A stretch of 61,610 nt of DNA, counting the filler, from Circinaria calcarea (Eukaryota): assembly GCA_051942165.1 (NCBI GenBank). It is 7 parts of 7 records of this genome, joined end to end, with 100 filler letters (N's around TTAATTAATTAA, not from the genome) between each part and the next. Parts side by side here need not be neighbours in the genome. Positions count along the whole stretch, not along the records: positions 52,901 to 61,610 come from JAVECS010001065.1; 6 more parts are not named here. The stretch is one strand, 5' to 3'. The notes beneath the pieces were generated by a model. That model saw only the letters and a list, made by a program, of their open reading frames with translations, was not told the origin of the DNA and searched no databases. Each line of letters starts with the position of its first letter. Position 1 is the first letter of the stretch. This document shows positions 52,901 to 60,418 of this stretch, one piece after another. The translations under genes were made by a program, and so were the position numbers.

Positions 52901-53335
52901 CACGGATCCAACCCAAGAGATATCAGATAGAGAATGCTCGAGTGTCGAAACATAATATGTCTGAAAGACACCGAACGAATTAATGTAACCCCAGGTATTA
53001 AAAATAACCAAGTGGGCAACGAGGGCTTGAGTCCAAGCTACAAGACCTCCATCAGGCGGTGGGCCAGGATCAGCGAGGCCCAGCTCCACTGCGATTTGTT
53101 TTTCAGGAGCAGAGGTGTCTTTCCGAGTCTGCTCTTGGAAACTGGACTCGGTGGAGAGAGTAGGGTCTGCGCCATTATAAGCAGCGGTTGCAGAAGCTGG
53201 GTGACGGTTGTTTTTCTCGAAGCCCATATCAGAACTTGGTTCATTCCGAGCGCTTGTTTTGGTTGGTGGAGGACAGCCGGACGACTGGTGATTGGCTGGC
53301 AAAAAGGCCCCGGCTTTTTCCTCTGGCGTCTCCAT
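52901..53335 (-). CDS. MFS monocarboxylate-transporter family (Mch-like) protein, 3' part lost at gap
   Basis: PPDGGLVAWTQALVAHLVIFNTWGYINSFGVFQTYY…SDISWVGSV is the characteristic MCT/Mch N-terminus. Confidence 0.9.
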
Positions 53336-54068
53336 TGACTAAGGAAGTGAGCGTGAAGGCGAGTACTCCGTATAAATGCTTAAAAGAGTGCTTAGGCGCG
53401 ACAAGTATGGACTTGTGAAAATTGGGAGAGAGAGTCAGAGTAAGGCAACATGATTCTGACTCATCCACATTCCGAAGAACCAGAGCAGAGCAACAGCGGG
53501 AGTTAATGGCCTTCGTCATTGCGTCGTTGGACTGTTCCACAACAGAAATGCGAGCTGCTGCGTTGAGCAGGCAGCTTGTCGATCCCTCATTACTCTGCAT
53601 CGATTGTTGCGATATTTCGGAATTCACCTCGGCCTCGGCTCGGCCTCGGCTCGGCCTCGGAATTCATCTCGGATTTACCGGACTTGGGATTTGACCGCGG
53701 ATCTTCTTACCACCAGTCCTGTTGAGCTCTCGTACCGAAAAGCTTCGAATTTTTCCTGCAGCGCATCCAACCTCGACTCGAAGCCGGGTACATCGAGGGC
53801 GGCAACGCTCTCGGAAAACCATGATTATCAAGTATGCAGCACTTGTGGGATCCGGTTATGGCCACTCCTTTCTATCACGATGATTATACAGCTCGGTAGA
53901 ATCGGACTTGGCTAGATTAAATCGGCTGTCATTGAGGTTAAAAGGCATCTGCAGTCCCAATTCTGTGTTCCAGAACATCCAAAAGCAATTAAAACGTCTT
54001 CTGAGCTACAAAGTCACTCCGTTTCTCCAAATATCTGATACCACTTGTATCTTTCAGTTAGCATCAAC

Positions 54069-54431
54069 ATGAAAATCAGCCAATACGCCGCGTTGGCTAT
54101 CTTCGCCGCCAGTCTTACAGCTGCTTTTCCCACCCCAAACGTTGGCGTCGAAACACGAAATGTGGGTGTCAGTGATCGCAATGTCAAAACTAGCGATGGT
54201 GCCTACAAGCGAAATGTAGGCGTCAGCGAAGAGAAGAGAAATGTCGGTGTCAGCGAGCGTAACGTTGGTGTTAGCGAGGCTGAAGCAGAGAAGAGAAATG
54301 TTGGCGTCAGCGGGCGCAACGTCGGCATCAGCGAAGAAGAGGCAGAGAAGAGAAATGTTGGCGTCAGTGGGCGCAACGTCGGCATCAGCGAAGCAGAAGC
54401 AGAGAAGAGAAATGTTGGCGTCAGCGAATAA
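54069..54431 (+). CDS. secreted Kex2-processed repeat protein (KEP); candidate RiPP precursor, 120 aa
   Basis: CAAC-ATG context; signal peptide MKISQYAALAIFAASLTAA; then ten NVG[V/I] units (nine NVG[V/I]S) separated by five KR sites, four monobasic (T/E/G)R sites and acidic spacers (EE, EAEAE, EEEAE); one variant unit DR-NVKTSDGAY. Confidence 0.92.
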   Translation: MKISQYAALAIFAASLTAAFPTPNVGVETRNVGVSDRNVKTSDGAYKRNVGVSEEKRNVGVSERNVGVSEAEAEKRNVGVSGRNVGISEEEAEKRNVGVSGRNVGISEAEAEKRNVGVSE

Positions 54432-55598
54432 GAAGAGGGCAAAGGCCTCTTCTCCTGATAGTGAGTTGTCTCGCCTTCTCTTCCGCTACTCACTACTTCT
54501 TGGCCCGTGGCTAACCTATCTCCAGTTTGCCAAGCATACTACCTCCTTACGACACTCGATTTTACGTGTTGTGTGTGCTGAAGGGCTTTGGGGACTTGGA
54601 CATGGATTTTGGGGGCCTCGAGATGCGGGAAAGGGGGTCGATGATGTCGTTTAGTAGAGCGCAGTGCTTTCTATTTTCTTCCCGATCAGAATCCAATACT
54701 GGACCGATCCTGGTTTCCCAACATCTACATGGGTTTTTTTGATGATCAAGTAATTTGCTATATCAAATGTGGCCCGGGTAATACTTAAAATAAGTACTTA
54801 ACTACTGCGGCGCTGTGATATATACACTCGATAAAGCACTCGTTTAATATGGACGTTAATAGGAATAAAGCACTTTGCTGGAGTTCCCGGTTGCACTTTT
54901 TTCCCCGCCAGGGGGGGTGGCTGAATATTAAGGTAACGTTATTAGGGGGCAAATAACAAAGCCCTACGTGTGTGTGCTCTGAATTATCGGCCTCCCGTCC
55001 CCAAAACTATAAAAGTGGGGAATAATTTATGATTCCAATACTCTGTATGGTAAGGGGGAACCCAAATCCCCCACCCAAAACTGAACTTCTAAAATTCCAT
55101 GTTCTGTTGCCAAAAAACCCCCCGCAAACCTTTTCTTTTTATTTATATAGGTAGCCGAGGAAAAACCCGCAAATAAAAGGTGCTTACCGACCACGTGATT
55201 GCGTGTCCCGGGAATTCCACAAGTCCAACGCTTTGCATCGATGCCGAACGCATTCGGGGTTTGGTAATACGGGACTGGGAAGATTAGCCAAAAAAACCCC
55301 CCCTTTTATATGATATGGTAACGATGTATATATGCGAGCTATCTTTTCCCGGTGGATATACGGGCAATTTCCGAAGGTTCTCTTTTTATCCTGGACGAGG
55401 CATAGATAGATACAACCGGGATCAAGAGCTTCTGTCAAAAAAAATCTCGGTCTCGAACGGTGAAATTGTATTTGATTTATAAAAAATCTCGGATTGACAT
55501 GTATACCGATCGACAACCGCTTTTTAATCTACTCATTCAGCCTTCATTCCCAAATCTTTAACTCCCCCCCCCCTACCCGTAGCTATTTCCATCTCCAG

Positions 55599-58234: not shown

Positions 58235-58891
58235 ATGATGCCCAAGTGGCACGAGCAGGTTTATGAGAAAGTCAGTGGAGGAGAAGATGACTTTTCTATT
58301 GGAAGGAAAACGGGGAAAAGTATCTGGCAGATTCGTATCCGCTCTTTACTCGCAGGCATAGCGATCTCCATTCTCATGGCCGTTTGCGTCGGCGGTATCA
58401 TCTGGTGGCCCTCTCGCCTGCACTCTGCTCGCCCTCCTTCCGCCAAACTCGACCAATCTGGTGCGCCAGAAAGATATCGCTACCACTGCGGCCACTCAAT
58501 CGAGGAAGCGAAAGCACTGGGCTGCTCATGGGACTTGCTCGCTGCAGCCTGGCTTCGACCGGAATGCATCGACCAGGAATTGACGGACGGTTTTCGAGCA
58601 GACGGCCCGTGGCAATATTTTGCCGACAAAGACGGCACCGAGGAACTTCAGGAGGAGGAATTGCAGTACCGCGTTGGTGAGAATAAGACATATTACACGT
58701 CGCTCAAATACCATCGAACGCATTGTTCTTACCAGTGGAGGAAAATGCACCGTGCGATGGAGAGGGGATCGAGGATCGAAAACGCCCTGGCGGATTACCA
58801 TCATACTCTGCATTGTGGATATGTTTTCTTGATGGAGGGTGAGCTCTCGGACTTGTCGACTTTGATCTCGGTTGAGTTTATGTATTGTTAA
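58235..58891 (+). CDS. UstYa/DUF3328-like twin-HxxHC protein #1 (type II membrane anchor, 218 aa)
   Basis: Single N-terminal TM (LLAGIAISILMAVCVGGIIWW); CGHSIEEAKALGCSWD…W..PEC.D block; HRTHC (58712-58726) and HTLHC (58802-58816); C-terminal Cys. Confidence 0.75.
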   Translation: MMPKWHEQVYEKVSGGEDDFSIGRKTGKSIWQIRIRSLLAGIAISILMAVCVGGIIWWPSRLHSARPPSAKLDQSGAPERYRYHCGHSIEEAKALGCSWDLLAAAWLRPECIDQELTDGFRADGPWQYFADKDGTEELQEEELQYRVGENKTYYTSLKYHRTHCSYQWRKMHRAMERGSRIENALADYHHTLHCGYVFLMEGELSDLSTLISVEFMYC

Positions 58892-59704
58892 GGGGAAACA
58901 GAAAGTGCGGACAACGATATAGAAGGGTGTTAGGATCTTGTTGCTCGATGCTCTCCGTACTATCCACTCCACAATTATAGCAAAATATACTGGGCAGTCT
59001 GCGAACCGCAATAAATGAAAAATCCTGTCTGCTCGGTCCTGAAGCCCAAAAGCCTAATTATCTCCCTTTACTTCGGTACGCACCCAGCAGCATAATGTCG
59101 GGTGAGATTTGAAGCCGTTTAATGACGACAATTATGCATCTATGAACTGATCAAAGTGAAATTATATAAGCCATACTCGCATTAGGCATCCAGAATGATA
59201 TCACCCGTGCAGTGTTCGTACCTCACAAGTCCGAGGGATTACCAACAATTAAAGTTTACCACGGTCCGAGGCTACAGGTTTCGGAATTGCGAAGCTCGGG
59301 TCTTTCGGAATTTACAATAACGGCTATGCAAAGTACTTCTCCTAGTCGATTCCTGCTGTTGAGCTCCGCTTCCGGAATGTCGTCGGAAATCCGGTGTCCT
59401 CCCTCTTGGGGGAGGGGGGATTCTCGGTTCAAAAAGGGGGTACTCCGTAAAACGCATGATCTCACTCGTGGATCTTAGATTTCCTTACAACAAGTACTTC
59501 TGTTCGCCAACGAAGGGGTGGTATAGGTTAAGAGGGCGTCTGCAAACCTATTTTATTTCTATATACTTTTGCGGATCAATCGTATTTCAATACCGAGACC
59601 AAACTTTACCTGGTGGGTGCGTGTCCTCATCAATAATACCATAAGTCCCAAGGTCGCTATTGACCAAAAACGCTCTAAGCAGAAATCAGATCTCCGAAAC
59701 AATC

Positions 59705-60418
59705 ATGGCACCCGCACGAGACAGCTCTGCAGAGGAAGGCCTGCTGCCGAAAGAATCCTGGGACAGCAAGAATAGTCTCGAACCCATTATCATTCAATCC
59801 TCGAAAAGATCCAGCGTCATGTACACGGCCATCTGTGTCCTCGCCGGCATGGCCTTCTCTCTCATCGTCCTCAGCGTAACCTCGAGTATTAAAATCCGGC
59901 AGCCTCTCCAGCCCACCCGTTTAAGTCTCCATGAACTCGGCCTCGACCCCGCGCTCAAGCCCGGCGAAGACCCCGTCGAGAACGGATATTGGTGCGGCAC
60001 GACCCCCGAAGAGGCCCGGACCAAGGGCTGCCAGTTCGACCTGGTCCTGTACTCCTGGGTACCACCGCCCTGCTACGACGCGGAGCTGCAACAGGCGTAC
60101 AAGGACGAGCGCGAGTCGGAGTGGTACCGCCATCGAGAGGGCCTGAATGGGGAAATGGTGCCGCAGGAGAGGGCGGCGTTGGGGATTGAGGAGGGGCTCT
60201 GGCTCTCGTGGGCGTATCATGACTATCATTGCCAGTTCATTTGGCGGATGATGACGCGAATCTTGCGGAATTCGAGCATGGGCGTGCCCGGACGGCTGCT
60301 GGAGTATTATCACACGGATCATTGCATCCATGTGCTCAAGGGGACGGAGCCGGGACCAGCGGTTGATATCAGTACCCTGGTTTCGCTGAATTACTCCACC
60401 TGCTACTCGCGGACTTGA
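59705..60418 (+). CDS. UstYa/DUF3328-like twin-HxxHC protein #2 (type II membrane anchor, 237 aa)
   Basis: ATG 59705; TM AICVLAGMAFSLIVLSV; CGTTPEEARTKGCQFD…WVPPPCYD; HDYHC (60218-60232) and HTDHC (60311-60325); paralog of 58235-58891 (D[L/I]STL[I/V]S…C terminus). Confidence 0.75.
   Translation: MAPARDSSAEEGLLPKESWDSKNSLEPIIIQSSKRSSVMYTAICVLAGMAFSLIVLSVTSSIKIRQPLQPTRLSLHELGLDPALKPGEDPVENGYWCGTTPEEARTKGCQFDLVLYSWVPPPCYDAELQQAYKDERESEWYRHREGLNGEMVPQERAALGIEEGLWLSWAYHDYHCQFIWRMMTRILRNSSMGVPGRLLEYYHTDHCIHVLKGTEPGPAVDISTLVSLNYSTCYSRT

What the first reader, a model, noticed from the sequence alone, without database searches (positions are those of the whole stretch)
52901..60418. Candidate new fungal RiPP (dikaritin-like) gene cluster: Kex2 repeat precursor + two twin-HxxHC oxidases + two MFS transporters
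SEEN: one gap-free contig carries a signal-peptide precursor with KR-delimited repeats (54069-54431), two paralogous single-TM proteins each with two HxxHC motifs (58235-58891, 59705-60418), an Mch-type MFS divergent from the precursor and a Sut1/SLC45-type MFS divergent from oxidase #1. No housekeeping gene lies between them. KNOWN: ustiloxin, phomopsin, asperipin-2a, victorin and epichloecyclin clusters pair a Kex2-processed repeat precursor with UstYa/DUF3328 HxxHC proteins, often with a transporter. INFERENCE: this is a compact cluster of that class, with a core that matches none of those pathways as I know them. It is truncated on the left by the contig end, so a regulator or further enzymes may be missing.
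Basis: partly seen in the sequence, partly recalled or inferred. Interest (0 to 1): 0.93.

Follow-up and report, generated by a model that had tools for sequence, protein, structure and literature searches.

The report
Repeat-peptide gene beside UstYa-like oxidase pair
A short fungal contig carries a real gene for a secreted, Kex2-cut repeat peptide two genes from a conserved pair of membrane proteins resembling the copper enzymes that tailor fungal peptide toxins, so it may be a new peptide natural-product cluster, but nothing yet shows the enzymes act on the peptide.

Summary
The finding lies on its own 8,710-bp contig (52901-61610). It carries a 120-aa signal-peptide ORF with 11 R|NVxxx units and 5 KR sites. 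Unit DNA differs almost only at synonymous third positions, so the ORF is coding.

Two paralogous single-TM proteins each carry two HxxHC motifs (28% identity, E 3e-23). Between precursor and oxidases lies a SUC/SLC45-type sugar transporter. The left-hand "Mch-type MFS" could not be verified.

Neither HxxHC protein matches Pfam PF11807 (UstYa/DUF3328). They belong to a large fungal family with no Pfam domain: 2,173 representatives at E<=1e-3, with invariant H..HC x2 plus four further Cys. PF11807 appears only as recurrent sub-threshold hits (15 of 109 members). Their predicted architecture matches published DUF3328 copper enzymes.

The paralog pair stands in tandem in a second, Diaporthe-like contig. 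No relative of the precursor was found, and the databases do not hold even this ORF. No neighbouring genomes or RNA runs could be read.

Verdict: a plausible KEP plus DUF3328-like RiPP locus (about 0.5), a new variant of a known kind. It is not a dikaritin in the strict sense, because the core has no Tyr.

The parts
52901..53335 (-). 5' part of a gene cut by the contig end: about 100 disordered residues, then a first hydrophobic segment. Said to be an Mch/MCT-type MFS; not verified.
   Evidence: ORF. No Pfam family at E<=1. No PDB sequence match at E<=1. The MCT-like reading of the PDGG...SFGVFQ stretch is recalled, not tested.
54069..54431 (+). Precursor gene: signal-peptide-like N-terminus plus 11 R|NVGVS-type units and 5 KR (Kex2) sites. 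The KR-to-KR products are NVGVSEE, NVGVSERNVGVSEAEAE, NVGVSGRNVGISEEEAE, NVGVSGRNVGISEAEAE and NVGVSE.
   Evidence: 83 synonymous against 14 non-synonymous pairwise codon differences among 9 units. Meets Umemura's KEP repeat rule. Not in the protein collection.
54230..54427 (+). 57-bp (19-codon) tandem repeat inside the precursor, 3.5 copies.
   Evidence: TRF: 87% matches, score 298.
55599..57480 (-). SUC/SLC45-type (GPH family) sugar-proton symporter-like gene, several exons, convergent with the precursor and divergent from oxidase 1. The exon borders and the ATG near 57480 were read by eye.
   Evidence: Exon 56527-57285 matches AtSUC1 at E 1.1e-23 and SLC45A4 at E 1.3e-14. Pfam MFS_2 gives 25.1 bits, under the 27-bit cut-off. 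ORFs.
58235..58891 (+). Twin-HxxHC protein 1 (218 aa): TM at residues 38-56, HRTHC at 160, HTLHC at 190, further Cys at 85, 97, 111 and 218.
   Evidence: Ortholog in L001 at 50% identity over 262 aa, E 1.4e-82. Own clade of 4 rows, SH-aLRT 98.
59705..60418 (+). Twin-HxxHC protein 2 (237 aa): disordered residues 1-33, TM helix 34-61, HDYHC at 172 on helix 169-188, HTDHC at 203 on helix 201-212, further Cys at 97, 109, 123 and 233, sequons at N189 and N229.
   Evidence: AF2 model with 109-row alignment: pLDDT 82.1.
53364..53372 (+). TACTCCGTA 9-mer. One copy lies in each of the three intergenic promoter regions of the contig (also 57886-57894 on the minus strand and 59441-59449 on the plus strand). 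Weak lead for shared regulation.
   Evidence: the only 9-mer shared by all three regions; 200 shuffles gave mean 0.02, maximum 1; 6 copies in the window against 0.20 expected, 3 of them on other contigs, so the motif is not specific to this locus.

Best explanation
The contig carries a compact candidate RiPP locus of the KEP plus DUF3328-like kind.

Proposed pathway:
- The 120-aa precursor enters the ER through its signal peptide.
- It is cut after KR by Kex2 in the Golgi, and perhaps after the single R before each unit by another protease. This releases short peptides that all begin with NVGVS or NVGIS.
- The two paralogous type-II-like membrane proteins sit in the same secretory compartments, with their C-terminal domains in the lumen.
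- There, two HxxHC helices per chain bind copper, as shown for the DUF3328 enzyme CctR.
- The enzymes oxidise unactivated C-H bonds of the aliphatic core (Val, Ile, Ser, Asn) by hydroxylation, desaturation, halogenation or a cross-link.
- One of the flanking transporters may export the product.

Shown here: the precursor is a real coding gene with KEP anatomy. The two proteins are paralogs of a large fungal twin-HxxHC family. The pair is conserved in tandem in a second fungus.

Inferred: copper binding, lumenal topology, dimerisation, and above all that the precursor is their substrate.
For: Precursor is real and KEP-like. Unit codons differ 83 synonymous against 14 non-synonymous. There are 3 repeats of 17 aa between KR sites, which meets the published KEP rule of >=3 repeats of >=8 aa (PMC7329392 section 13).

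Oxidases resemble DUF3328.
- The twin HxxHC is invariant across 109 aligned family members, together with 4 further Cys and one Trp.
- 138 of 147 representatives have exactly two motifs. The spacing is 30 residues in 88 of those 138.
- The AF2 model (pLDDT 82.1) gives a disordered N-terminus, a TM helix at 34-61, and each HxxHC on its own helix. This is the layout described for CctR (PMC12435403, main text read).
- PF11807 is the only recurring Pfam family. It hits 7 of 147 members at E<=0.01 and 15 of 109 at E<=1.
- Two of those matches are collinear over profile positions 9-175 of 220.
- The short matches cover both motifs.
- The nearest named ESM-Atlas clusters are UstYa, scoring 0.84-0.86. 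These are leads only.

The pair is a unit. L001 has an ox1-like gene followed by an ox2-like gene in the same order and orientation. The two fall in separate supported clades, so the duplication is old.

Base rate. In 1,461 fungal genomes, 31.8% of all DUF3328 genes lie within 15 genes of a KEP gene, against 0.7% of MFS_1 genes. The count peaks at the adjacent position (PMC7329392 section 7). Here the distance is two genes. DUF3328 enzymes also act on aliphatic C(sp3)-H bonds without Tyr (PMC12435403).
Against: - Neither window protein reaches PF11807 at E<=1, and no family member reaches its 25-bit cut-off.
- A profile search of the 5.8-billion collection returned 41 proteins, none bearing PF11807. 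Homology to DUF3328 is therefore likely but not proven.
- The KEP enrichment figures were measured for PF11807 proteins, not for this family.
- No relative of the precursor was found, so co-occurrence is untested.
- The repeats lack Tyr. In Umemura's survey 65.6% of DUF3328-accompanied KEPs have Tyr in the repeats, against 38.2% of the unaccompanied ones.
- The gene between precursor and oxidases is a sugar-symporter type, not a typical cluster pump.
- No tyrosinase, methyltransferase, peptidase or regulator is on the contig, although the contig is cut at both ends.
Confidence: 0.5

Rival explanations
1. Unrelated neighbours. The KEP gene yields unmodified linear secreted peptides (a signal, pheromone-like or effector peptide). 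The twin-HxxHC pair acts on another substrate, such as a non-ribosomal peptide, a small molecule or a protein encoded elsewhere. The two transporters are ordinary nutrient carriers.
For: - 78% of 7,878 KEPs have no DUF3328 gene within 15 genes.
- The core has no aromatic residue.
- DUF3328 enzymes also serve non-ribosomal pathways such as cyclochlorotine (PMC12435403).
- The conserved unit seen in L001 is only the oxidase pair.
- The intervening gene is a SUC/SLC45-type sugar carrier.
- The family is very large, with 2,173 representatives, and its usual neighbourhood is unknown.
Against: - Chance adjacency of a KEP within two genes is rare, with about 5 KEPs per ascomycete genome (abstract of PMC7329392).
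- One 9-mer is shared by all three promoter regions, but it also occurs on other contigs.
Confidence: 0.38
2. The twin-HxxHC proteins are not DUF3328-type enzymes at all. They would be a convergent Cys/His-rich lumenal family, for example for metal handling or redox, and the resemblance is limited to the motif.
For: - No PF11807 match above threshold in any of the 147 or 109 members scanned.
- The N-terminal half of the domain (CGxSxxEAxxxGCxFD...W.P..C) is family-specific.
Against: - PF11807 recurs as the top sub-threshold family (15 of 109 members). In two members the match is collinear over about 165 profile positions, not just the motif.
- Overall length, TM anchor, motif spacing and helix placement are the same as in CctR.
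Confidence: 0.1
3. The repeat ORF is not a functional gene: a coding-looking minisatellite or a dead relic.
For: - It is absent from the protein collection, even as an exact sequence.
- No homolog was found.
Against: - The frame is intact, with an ATG and a signal-peptide-like start.
- 5 of 6 variable columns among the units are synonymous third positions.
- Ten of the 11 units keep the preceding R.
Confidence: 0.04

Closest known systems
Kex2-processed repeat proteins (KEPs) accompanied by DUF3328 genes (Umemura 2020, PMC7329392; ustiloxin UstA/UstYa/UstYb as type case)
   Same: Signal peptide, tandem repeats between KR sites, two twin-HxxHC single-TM proteins within a few genes, MFS genes nearby.
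   Different: The oxidases are not recognised by PF11807. The repeat has no Tyr. No tyrosinase or methyltransferase is on the contig. The NVGVS repeat was not found in the 3 held supplementary files of that survey.
Epichloecyclin cluster gigA-gigB-gigC-kexB (PMC10540207, passages read)
   Same: A compact locus: one multi-core precursor with imperfect repeats plus a DUF3328-type cyclisation factor.
   Different: GigB carries the Pfam DUF3328 domain. The epichloecyclin core has a conserved Tyr. A SET methyltransferase and a dedicated kexin are clustered there; none is seen here.
CctR, DUF3328 copper hydroxylase of cyclochlorotine (PMC12435403, main text read; ApnU and AprY are cited there)
   Same: Disordered N-terminus, one TM helix, a lumenal C-terminal domain, HxxHC(x)nHxxHC with each motif on a helix, extra conserved Cys fit for disulfides. 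Chemistry on unactivated C(sp3)-H bonds suits a Val-rich core.
   Different: CctR acts on a non-ribosomal peptide and is a PF11807 member. Dimerisation and copper binding of the window proteins could not be tested. Here two divergent paralogs (28% identity) are kept together.
Lichen RiPP clusters of clans R1 and R2 and singletons with DUF3328 signature genes (PMC12048977; abstract, passages, sections 8 and 16 read)
   Same: The closest named relatives of oxidase 2 are from lichen-forming Lecanoromycetes. Twin HXXHC motifs in low-similarity signature genes.
   Different: That survey started from antiSMASH signature genes, which it describes as DUF3328-containing, and reported no conserved repeat precursor in clans R1 and R2. 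Here a clear repeat precursor is present but the oxidases lack the Pfam domain.

Membership tests
Pfam PF11807 UstYa / DUF3328 | Match to the PF11807 profile at or above its gathering score (25 bits) | tested here: not met
   No PF11807 hit for either window protein at E<=1. Among family members, 7 of 147 hit at E<=0.01 and 15 of 109 at E<=1. The best is 20.4 bits, E 5.2e-4; none reaches 25 bits.
DUF3328 superfamily as described for CctR (PMC12435403) | HxxHC(x)nHxxHC motif near the C-terminus | tested here: met
   Oxidase 1: H160..C164 and H190..C194. Oxidase 2: H172..C176 and H203..C207. Invariant in 109 aligned members. 138 of 147 representatives have exactly two motifs.
DUF3328 superfamily as described for CctR (PMC12435403) | Disordered N-terminus, single TM helix, C-terminal domain with each HxxHC on a helix | tested here: met
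   AF2 model m11f404362e38 (pLDDT 82.1): residues 1-33 have low confidence, helix at 34-61, helices at 169-188 and 201-212 carry the motifs. The pairing geometry of the four His residues was not inspected, because coordinates were not readable.
DUF3328 superfamily as described for CctR (PMC12435403) | Disulfide-linked dimer with binuclear copper site; O2- and electron-dependent | not testable with these tools
Copper is not among its ligands. Needs biochemistry.
DUF3328 superfamily as described for CctR (PMC12435403) | Found only in fungi | tested here: met
   Every named hit is from a filamentous ascomycete: Mycoblastus, Protoblastenia, Stictis, Diaporthe, Cytospora, Rhypophila, Mollisia, Xylariales, Aspergillus heteromorphus.
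Kex2-processed repeat protein (KEP; Umemura 2020) | >=3 tandem repeats of >=8 aa, each <=100 aa, between KR/KK/RK/RR sites | tested here: met
   Three 17-aa repeats between KR sites, plus 7-aa and 6-aa end units. Rule read.
Kex2-processed repeat protein (KEP; Umemura 2020) | Signal peptide predicted by SignalP | tested here: inconclusive
   No SignalP was at hand. The N-terminus MKISQYAALAIFAASLTAAFP has mean Kyte-Doolittle hydropathy 1.83 over residues 6-20 and looks like a signal peptide.
Dikaritin cluster (five-part definition of Ding 2015, as quoted in PMC12048977) | Tyrosinase and methyltransferase genes in the cluster | tested here: not met
   No further long ORF on the 8.7-kb contig. 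Pfam scan of window ORFs gave none. The contig is cut at both ends, so absence from the genome locus is not shown.
Dikaritin cluster (five-part definition of Ding 2015, as quoted in PMC12048977) | Core peptide with Tyr for the ether cross-link | tested here: not met
   The repeats contain only N, V, G, I, S, E, A, K, R. The two Tyr of the protein lie in the signal peptide and in the degenerate third unit.
Dikaritin cluster (five-part definition of Ding 2015, as quoted in PMC12048977) | Repeat precursor, multiple DUF3328 proteins, transporter | tested here: inconclusive
   The precursor and two DUF3328-like proteins are present. The verified transporter is a sugar-symporter type. The other transporter is unverified.

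The most novel reading that the evidence does not exclude
A large fungal sister family of the DUF3328 copper enzymes is invisible to PF11807, and therefore probably to mining rules that rely on that domain. It is a second, unrecognised set of RiPP tailoring enzymes. Its members work as conserved paralog pairs (possibly heterodimers) and here convert a Tyr-free, Val-rich NVGVS core into a new class of modified peptide by C(sp3)-H chemistry. Part of the 78% of KEPs now counted as 'unaccompanied' would then be RiPP precursors after all.
Probability: 0.25. Interest if true: 0.8.

Novelty: new variant of a known kind. Interest (0 to 1): 0.6.

Why it matters
Fungal RiPP mining leans on the DUF3328/UstYa Pfam domain. 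The lichen survey I read found many such signature genes but no repeat precursors. This locus shows the reverse case: a textbook repeat precursor beside oxidases that keep the twin HxxHC copper motif but escape the Pfam model. They belong to a family of more than 2,000 sequence clusters without annotation.

If the link holds, it gives three things:
- a ready profile (alignment A2) for finding hidden clusters;
- a Tyr-free substrate for the newly defined copper C-H oxidases;
- a small three-gene set that can be tested directly by heterologous expression.

If the link fails, the family is still an uncharacterised branch of a new metalloenzyme class.

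Tried and rejected
- Whole genome: none held.
- Sequencing runs: none was listed for the contig, and no RNA holder was listed.
- Precursor homologs: 6,795 word-sharing candidates of 66-210 aa, none at E<=0.1. The exact sequence is not in the collection, so small-ORF calling is a likely reason. 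Longer and shorter length classes were not searched.
- NVGVS, NVGIS and RNVG in the 3 held supplements of PMC7329392: 0 occurrences. 'NVGVS' in the paper library: 3 papers, unrelated by title (listing only).
- Metagenome contigs: 68 pattern matches, of which only 1 was a true relative (L001, 2,576 bp), too short for context. No conserved ORF lies between the two oxidase genes of L001 and the window.
- Profile search for PF11807-bearing proteins with A2: 41 hits, none with any Pfam domain. Only the 8,000 candidates sharing the most words were scored.
- PDB by sequence (A2): only a designed coiled coil against the TM region (E 7.4e-4) and FliL (E 1.4).
- Foldseek against the PDB: 0 matches at E<=0.001.
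- VIA-align wide: 48,161 chains, none with Z>=5. The best, Z 3.4, mostly covers the TM helix. The lumenal domain alone was not searched.
- First AF2 model, from 15 sequences: poor (pLDDT 58.7). It was replaced by the 109-sequence model.
Nothing was folded.
- Shared promoter motif TACTCCGTA: present in all three promoters, but also 3 times on other contigs of the window and absent from L001. Kept only as a weak lead.
- Earlier findings of this scan: nothing for this place or sequence, and nothing relevant by words.
- Literature: the search for 'UstYa' alone was swamped by an author name. PMC12145154 (ApnU) is not held.
- Alpha-factor-type pheromone reading: considered and set aside. The acidic EA-rich spacer here precedes KR instead of following it (recalled from yeast MF-alpha). 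The core also lacks the Trp/Cys pattern recalled for filamentous-ascomycete pheromones. Not tested.

Full report
WHAT THE WINDOW IS. The 61,610-base window is not one molecule. It is seven contigs of about 8.7 kb joined by N44-TTAATTAATTAA-N44 spacers. The finding sits on the last contig, 52901-61610 (8,710 bp, no N inside). That contig is cut at both ends. No whole genome is held. Long ORFs on the other contigs are typical of filamentous ascomycetes: NACHT/ankyrin, fungal rhodopsin domain, DUF7514, DUF7580, kinases.

GENE ORDER ON THE CONTIG:
- A partial gene on the minus strand, 52901-53335.
- 733 bp of divergent spacer.
- The precursor, 54069-54431 (+).
- About 1.1 kb without ORFs.
- A multi-exon transporter on the minus strand, about 55599-57480.
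- About 750 bp of divergent spacer.
- HxxHC protein 1, 58235-58891 (+).
- 813 bp of spacer.
- HxxHC protein 2, 59705-60418 (+).
- 1.2 kb of low-complexity, increasingly AT-rich sequence to the contig end.

THE PRECURSOR IS A REAL GENE.
- The 120-aa ORF starts with a hydrophobic signal-peptide-like segment.
- It holds 11 units of the form NV[GK][VIT][SE]. Ten are preceded by R, and five of these by KR.
- Kex2 cuts after KR would give NVGVSEE, three 17-mers (NVGVS[E/G]RNVG[V/I]SE[A/E]EAE) and a C-terminal NVGVSE.
- This meets the published KEP rule of >=3 repeats of >=8 aa between dibasic sites.
- TRF sees a 57-bp period, 3.5 copies.
- Among the nine NVG[VI]S units, pairwise codon differences are 83 synonymous against 14 non-synonymous. 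Five of six variable nucleotide columns are third positions, and the sixth is the V/I change.
- This is the signature of selection on the peptide in this frame. The ORFs in the other frames and on the other strand are by-products of the repeat.
- The ORF is absent from the 15-billion-protein collection as an exact sequence. No relative scored E<=0.1 among 6,795 word-sharing candidates.
- Because even this copy was not called as a gene, missing relatives say little.

THE TWO HxxHC PROTEINS.
- They are paralogs: 28% identity over 191 aa, E 3e-23.
- Each has one strong hydrophobic segment at residues 38-56 and two HxxHC motifs 30-31 residues apart near the C-terminus.
Neither protein matches PF11807 even at E<=1.
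- Oxidase 2 has 19 relatives in the word-indexed collection besides itself. None carries a Pfam domain, and all that are named are called hypothetical. The named sources are the lichen-forming Mycoblastus, Protoblastenia and Stictis, and the Diaporthales Diaporthe and Cytospora.
- A profile of 15 sequences found 2,173 representatives (50% clusters) at E<=1e-3, 1,546 at E<=1e-10 and 88 at E<=1e-30.
- In the 147 further representatives among the best 150 listed, 138 have exactly two HxxHC motifs, 2 have three, 6 have one and 1 has none.
- In a 109-row alignment the invariant columns are C97, C109, W118, C123, H172, H175, C176, H203, H206, C207 and C233, numbered on oxidase 2.

RELATION TO DUF3328. 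PF11807 is the only Pfam family that recurs among members.
- It hits 7 of 147 members at E<=0.01 and 15 of 109 at E<=1. The next family, Rad10, hits 6 of 109.
- The best PF11807 score is 20.4 bits (E 5.2e-4), below the 25-bit cut-off.
- Two matches are collinear over profile positions 9-175 of 220. The short matches cover both motifs.
- In a tree of 33 of the 109 rows, the five included members with such hits sit in one 7-row group, apart from both window clades.
- ESM-Atlas gives UstYa clusters as the nearest named neighbours of both proteins, at 0.84-0.86. By the tool's own rules these are leads only.
- A second profile search of the word-indexed collection returned 41 proteins, none with PF11807. 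Only the 8,000 candidates sharing the most words were scored.

STRUCTURE.
- With the 109-row alignment, AlphaFold2 gives a confident model (pLDDT 82.1, pTM 0.65).
- Residues 1-33 are disordered. There is a TM helix at 34-61 and a mixed alpha/beta domain from about residue 93.
- In that domain, H172-x-x-H-C lies on helix 169-188 and H203-x-x-H-C on helix 201-212.
- No solved structure resembles it: Foldseek gave 0 matches at E<=0.001, VIA-align gave no Z>=5 among 48,161 chains, and the PDB profile search found nothing relevant.
- The layout matches the published description of CctR (PMC12435403, main text read).
- CctR is a membrane-anchored, disulfide-linked homodimer. Its HxxHC(x)nHxxHC motif, with one HxxHC per helix, binds two copper ions. 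It hydroxylates an unactivated C(sp3)-H bond with O2 and electron input.
- The four extra invariant Cys and the conserved sequons N189 and N229 in the oxidase 2 clade fit a lumenal domain. That is inference.

VERDICT ON MEMBERSHIP. I file the two proteins as DUF3328-like in motif and architecture. They are not members of PF11807.

THE PAIR IS CONSERVED.
- The single related locus I could fetch is L001, a 2,576-bp metagenome contig whose oxidase 2 copy resembles the Diaporthe protein P0011.
- It carries an oxidase 1-like gene, 50% identical over 262 aa, E 1.4e-82.
- About 1.1 kb downstream, in the same orientation, it carries an oxidase 2-like gene, 74% identical over the 92 aa compared.
- Oxidase 1 and oxidase 2 fall in separate supported clades. 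Oxidase 1 sits in a clade of 4 rows (SH-aLRT 98). Oxidase 2 sits in clades of 5 rows (98) and 9 rows (96).
- The duplication is therefore old, and the tandem arrangement has been kept in two distant fungi.
- This suggests the two work together. I could not test whether they form a heterodimer, because complex prediction was never available.
- L001 ends 63 bp upstream of its oxidase 1 gene, so it says nothing about a precursor. No ORF between the two genes is conserved.

THE TRANSPORTERS.
- The gene between precursor and oxidases matches plant SUC1 (E 1.1e-23) and human SLC45A4 (E 1.3e-14).
- The partial ORF at the left end has no Pfam or PDB match. Its MCT-like look is only recalled.

IS THE PRECURSOR THE SUBSTRATE? 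Nothing here tests this directly.

For the link:
- In 1,461 fungal genomes, 22% of 7,878 KEPs have a DUF3328 gene within 15 genes, at a mean distance of 3.09 genes.
- 31.8% of all DUF3328 genes lie in such neighbourhoods, against 0.7% of MFS_1 genes. The count peaks next to the KEP gene.
- With about five KEPs per ascomycete genome, a chance neighbour at two genes' distance is rare.

Against the link:
- Those numbers were measured for PF11807 proteins, not for this family.
- The core has no Tyr. In that survey 65.6% of accompanied and 38.2% of unaccompanied KEPs have Tyr in the repeats.
- No accessory enzyme gene is present on the contig.

One 9-mer, TACTCCGTA, occurs once in each of the three promoter regions. 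It also occurs three times on other contigs of the window, 6 times in all against 0.2 expected, and not in L001. It is a genome-wide motif and only a weak hint. No RNA or DNA run could be listed.

COMPARISON WITH WHAT IS KNOWN.
- The nearest kind is the KEP plus DUF3328 pairing: ustiloxin, asperipin-2a, phomopsin, epichloecyclin.
- The epichloecyclin locus is the nearest in compactness.
- The lichen RiPP survey (PMC12048977; abstract, passages, sections 8 and 16 read) found DUF3328 signature genes across Lecanoromycetes but no conserved repeat precursor in its two clans. It worked from antiSMASH signature genes.
- That these oxidases would be missed by such rules is my inference from the absent Pfam match.
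- I found no paper naming this family or an NVGVS peptide. Most subscription journals are not in the library.

VERDICT. The locus is a plausible KEP plus DUF3328-like peptide-modification locus (about 0.5). Its main rival is that the genes are unrelated neighbours (about 0.38). It is a new variant of a known kind. The most interesting part is the large, unannotated, Pfam-invisible twin-HxxHC family and its conserved paralog pair.

Noticed in passing
window 8726-8825, 17544-17643, 26362-26461, 35176-35275, 43989-44088, 52801-52900: The window is a chain of seven contigs of about 8.7 kb, joined by N44-TTAATTAATTAA-N44 spacers. Gene linkage may only be read within one contig.
   Followed up: yes
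window 956, 10908, 32365, 53364, 57886, 59441: The 9-mer TACTCCGTA occurs 6 times in the window against 0.2 expected, with no longer repeat around it. It may be a common promoter element of this fungus.
   Followed up: partly
window 61000-61610 and 52470-52800: Both contig ends become AT-rich (GC 0.39 falling to 0.20). They carry short tandem repeats: a 14-bp unit x6 at 61223-61308 and GTACTGGAC-type repeats at 52630-52720. There are also GC-rich palindrome-like blocks (GGGGAGACCCCCGGAA twice near 61115-61205). This may explain why the assembly breaks here.
   Followed up: no
L001 2009-2576: The oxidase 2-like gene of L001 continues in another frame after about residue 90: 1802-2281 and 2271-2576 match in different frames. 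This is an intron, a frameshift or a sequencing error.
   Followed up: no
window 4548-7913 and 49977-52289: NACHT/NPHP3_N plus ankyrin-repeat ORFs, and a second long ankyrin ORF, on other contigs. These are typical fungal NLR-like genes.
   Followed up: no
window 53627-53660: A CTCGGC(CTCGG) microsatellite lies in the divergent promoter between the left partial gene and the precursor.
   Followed up: no
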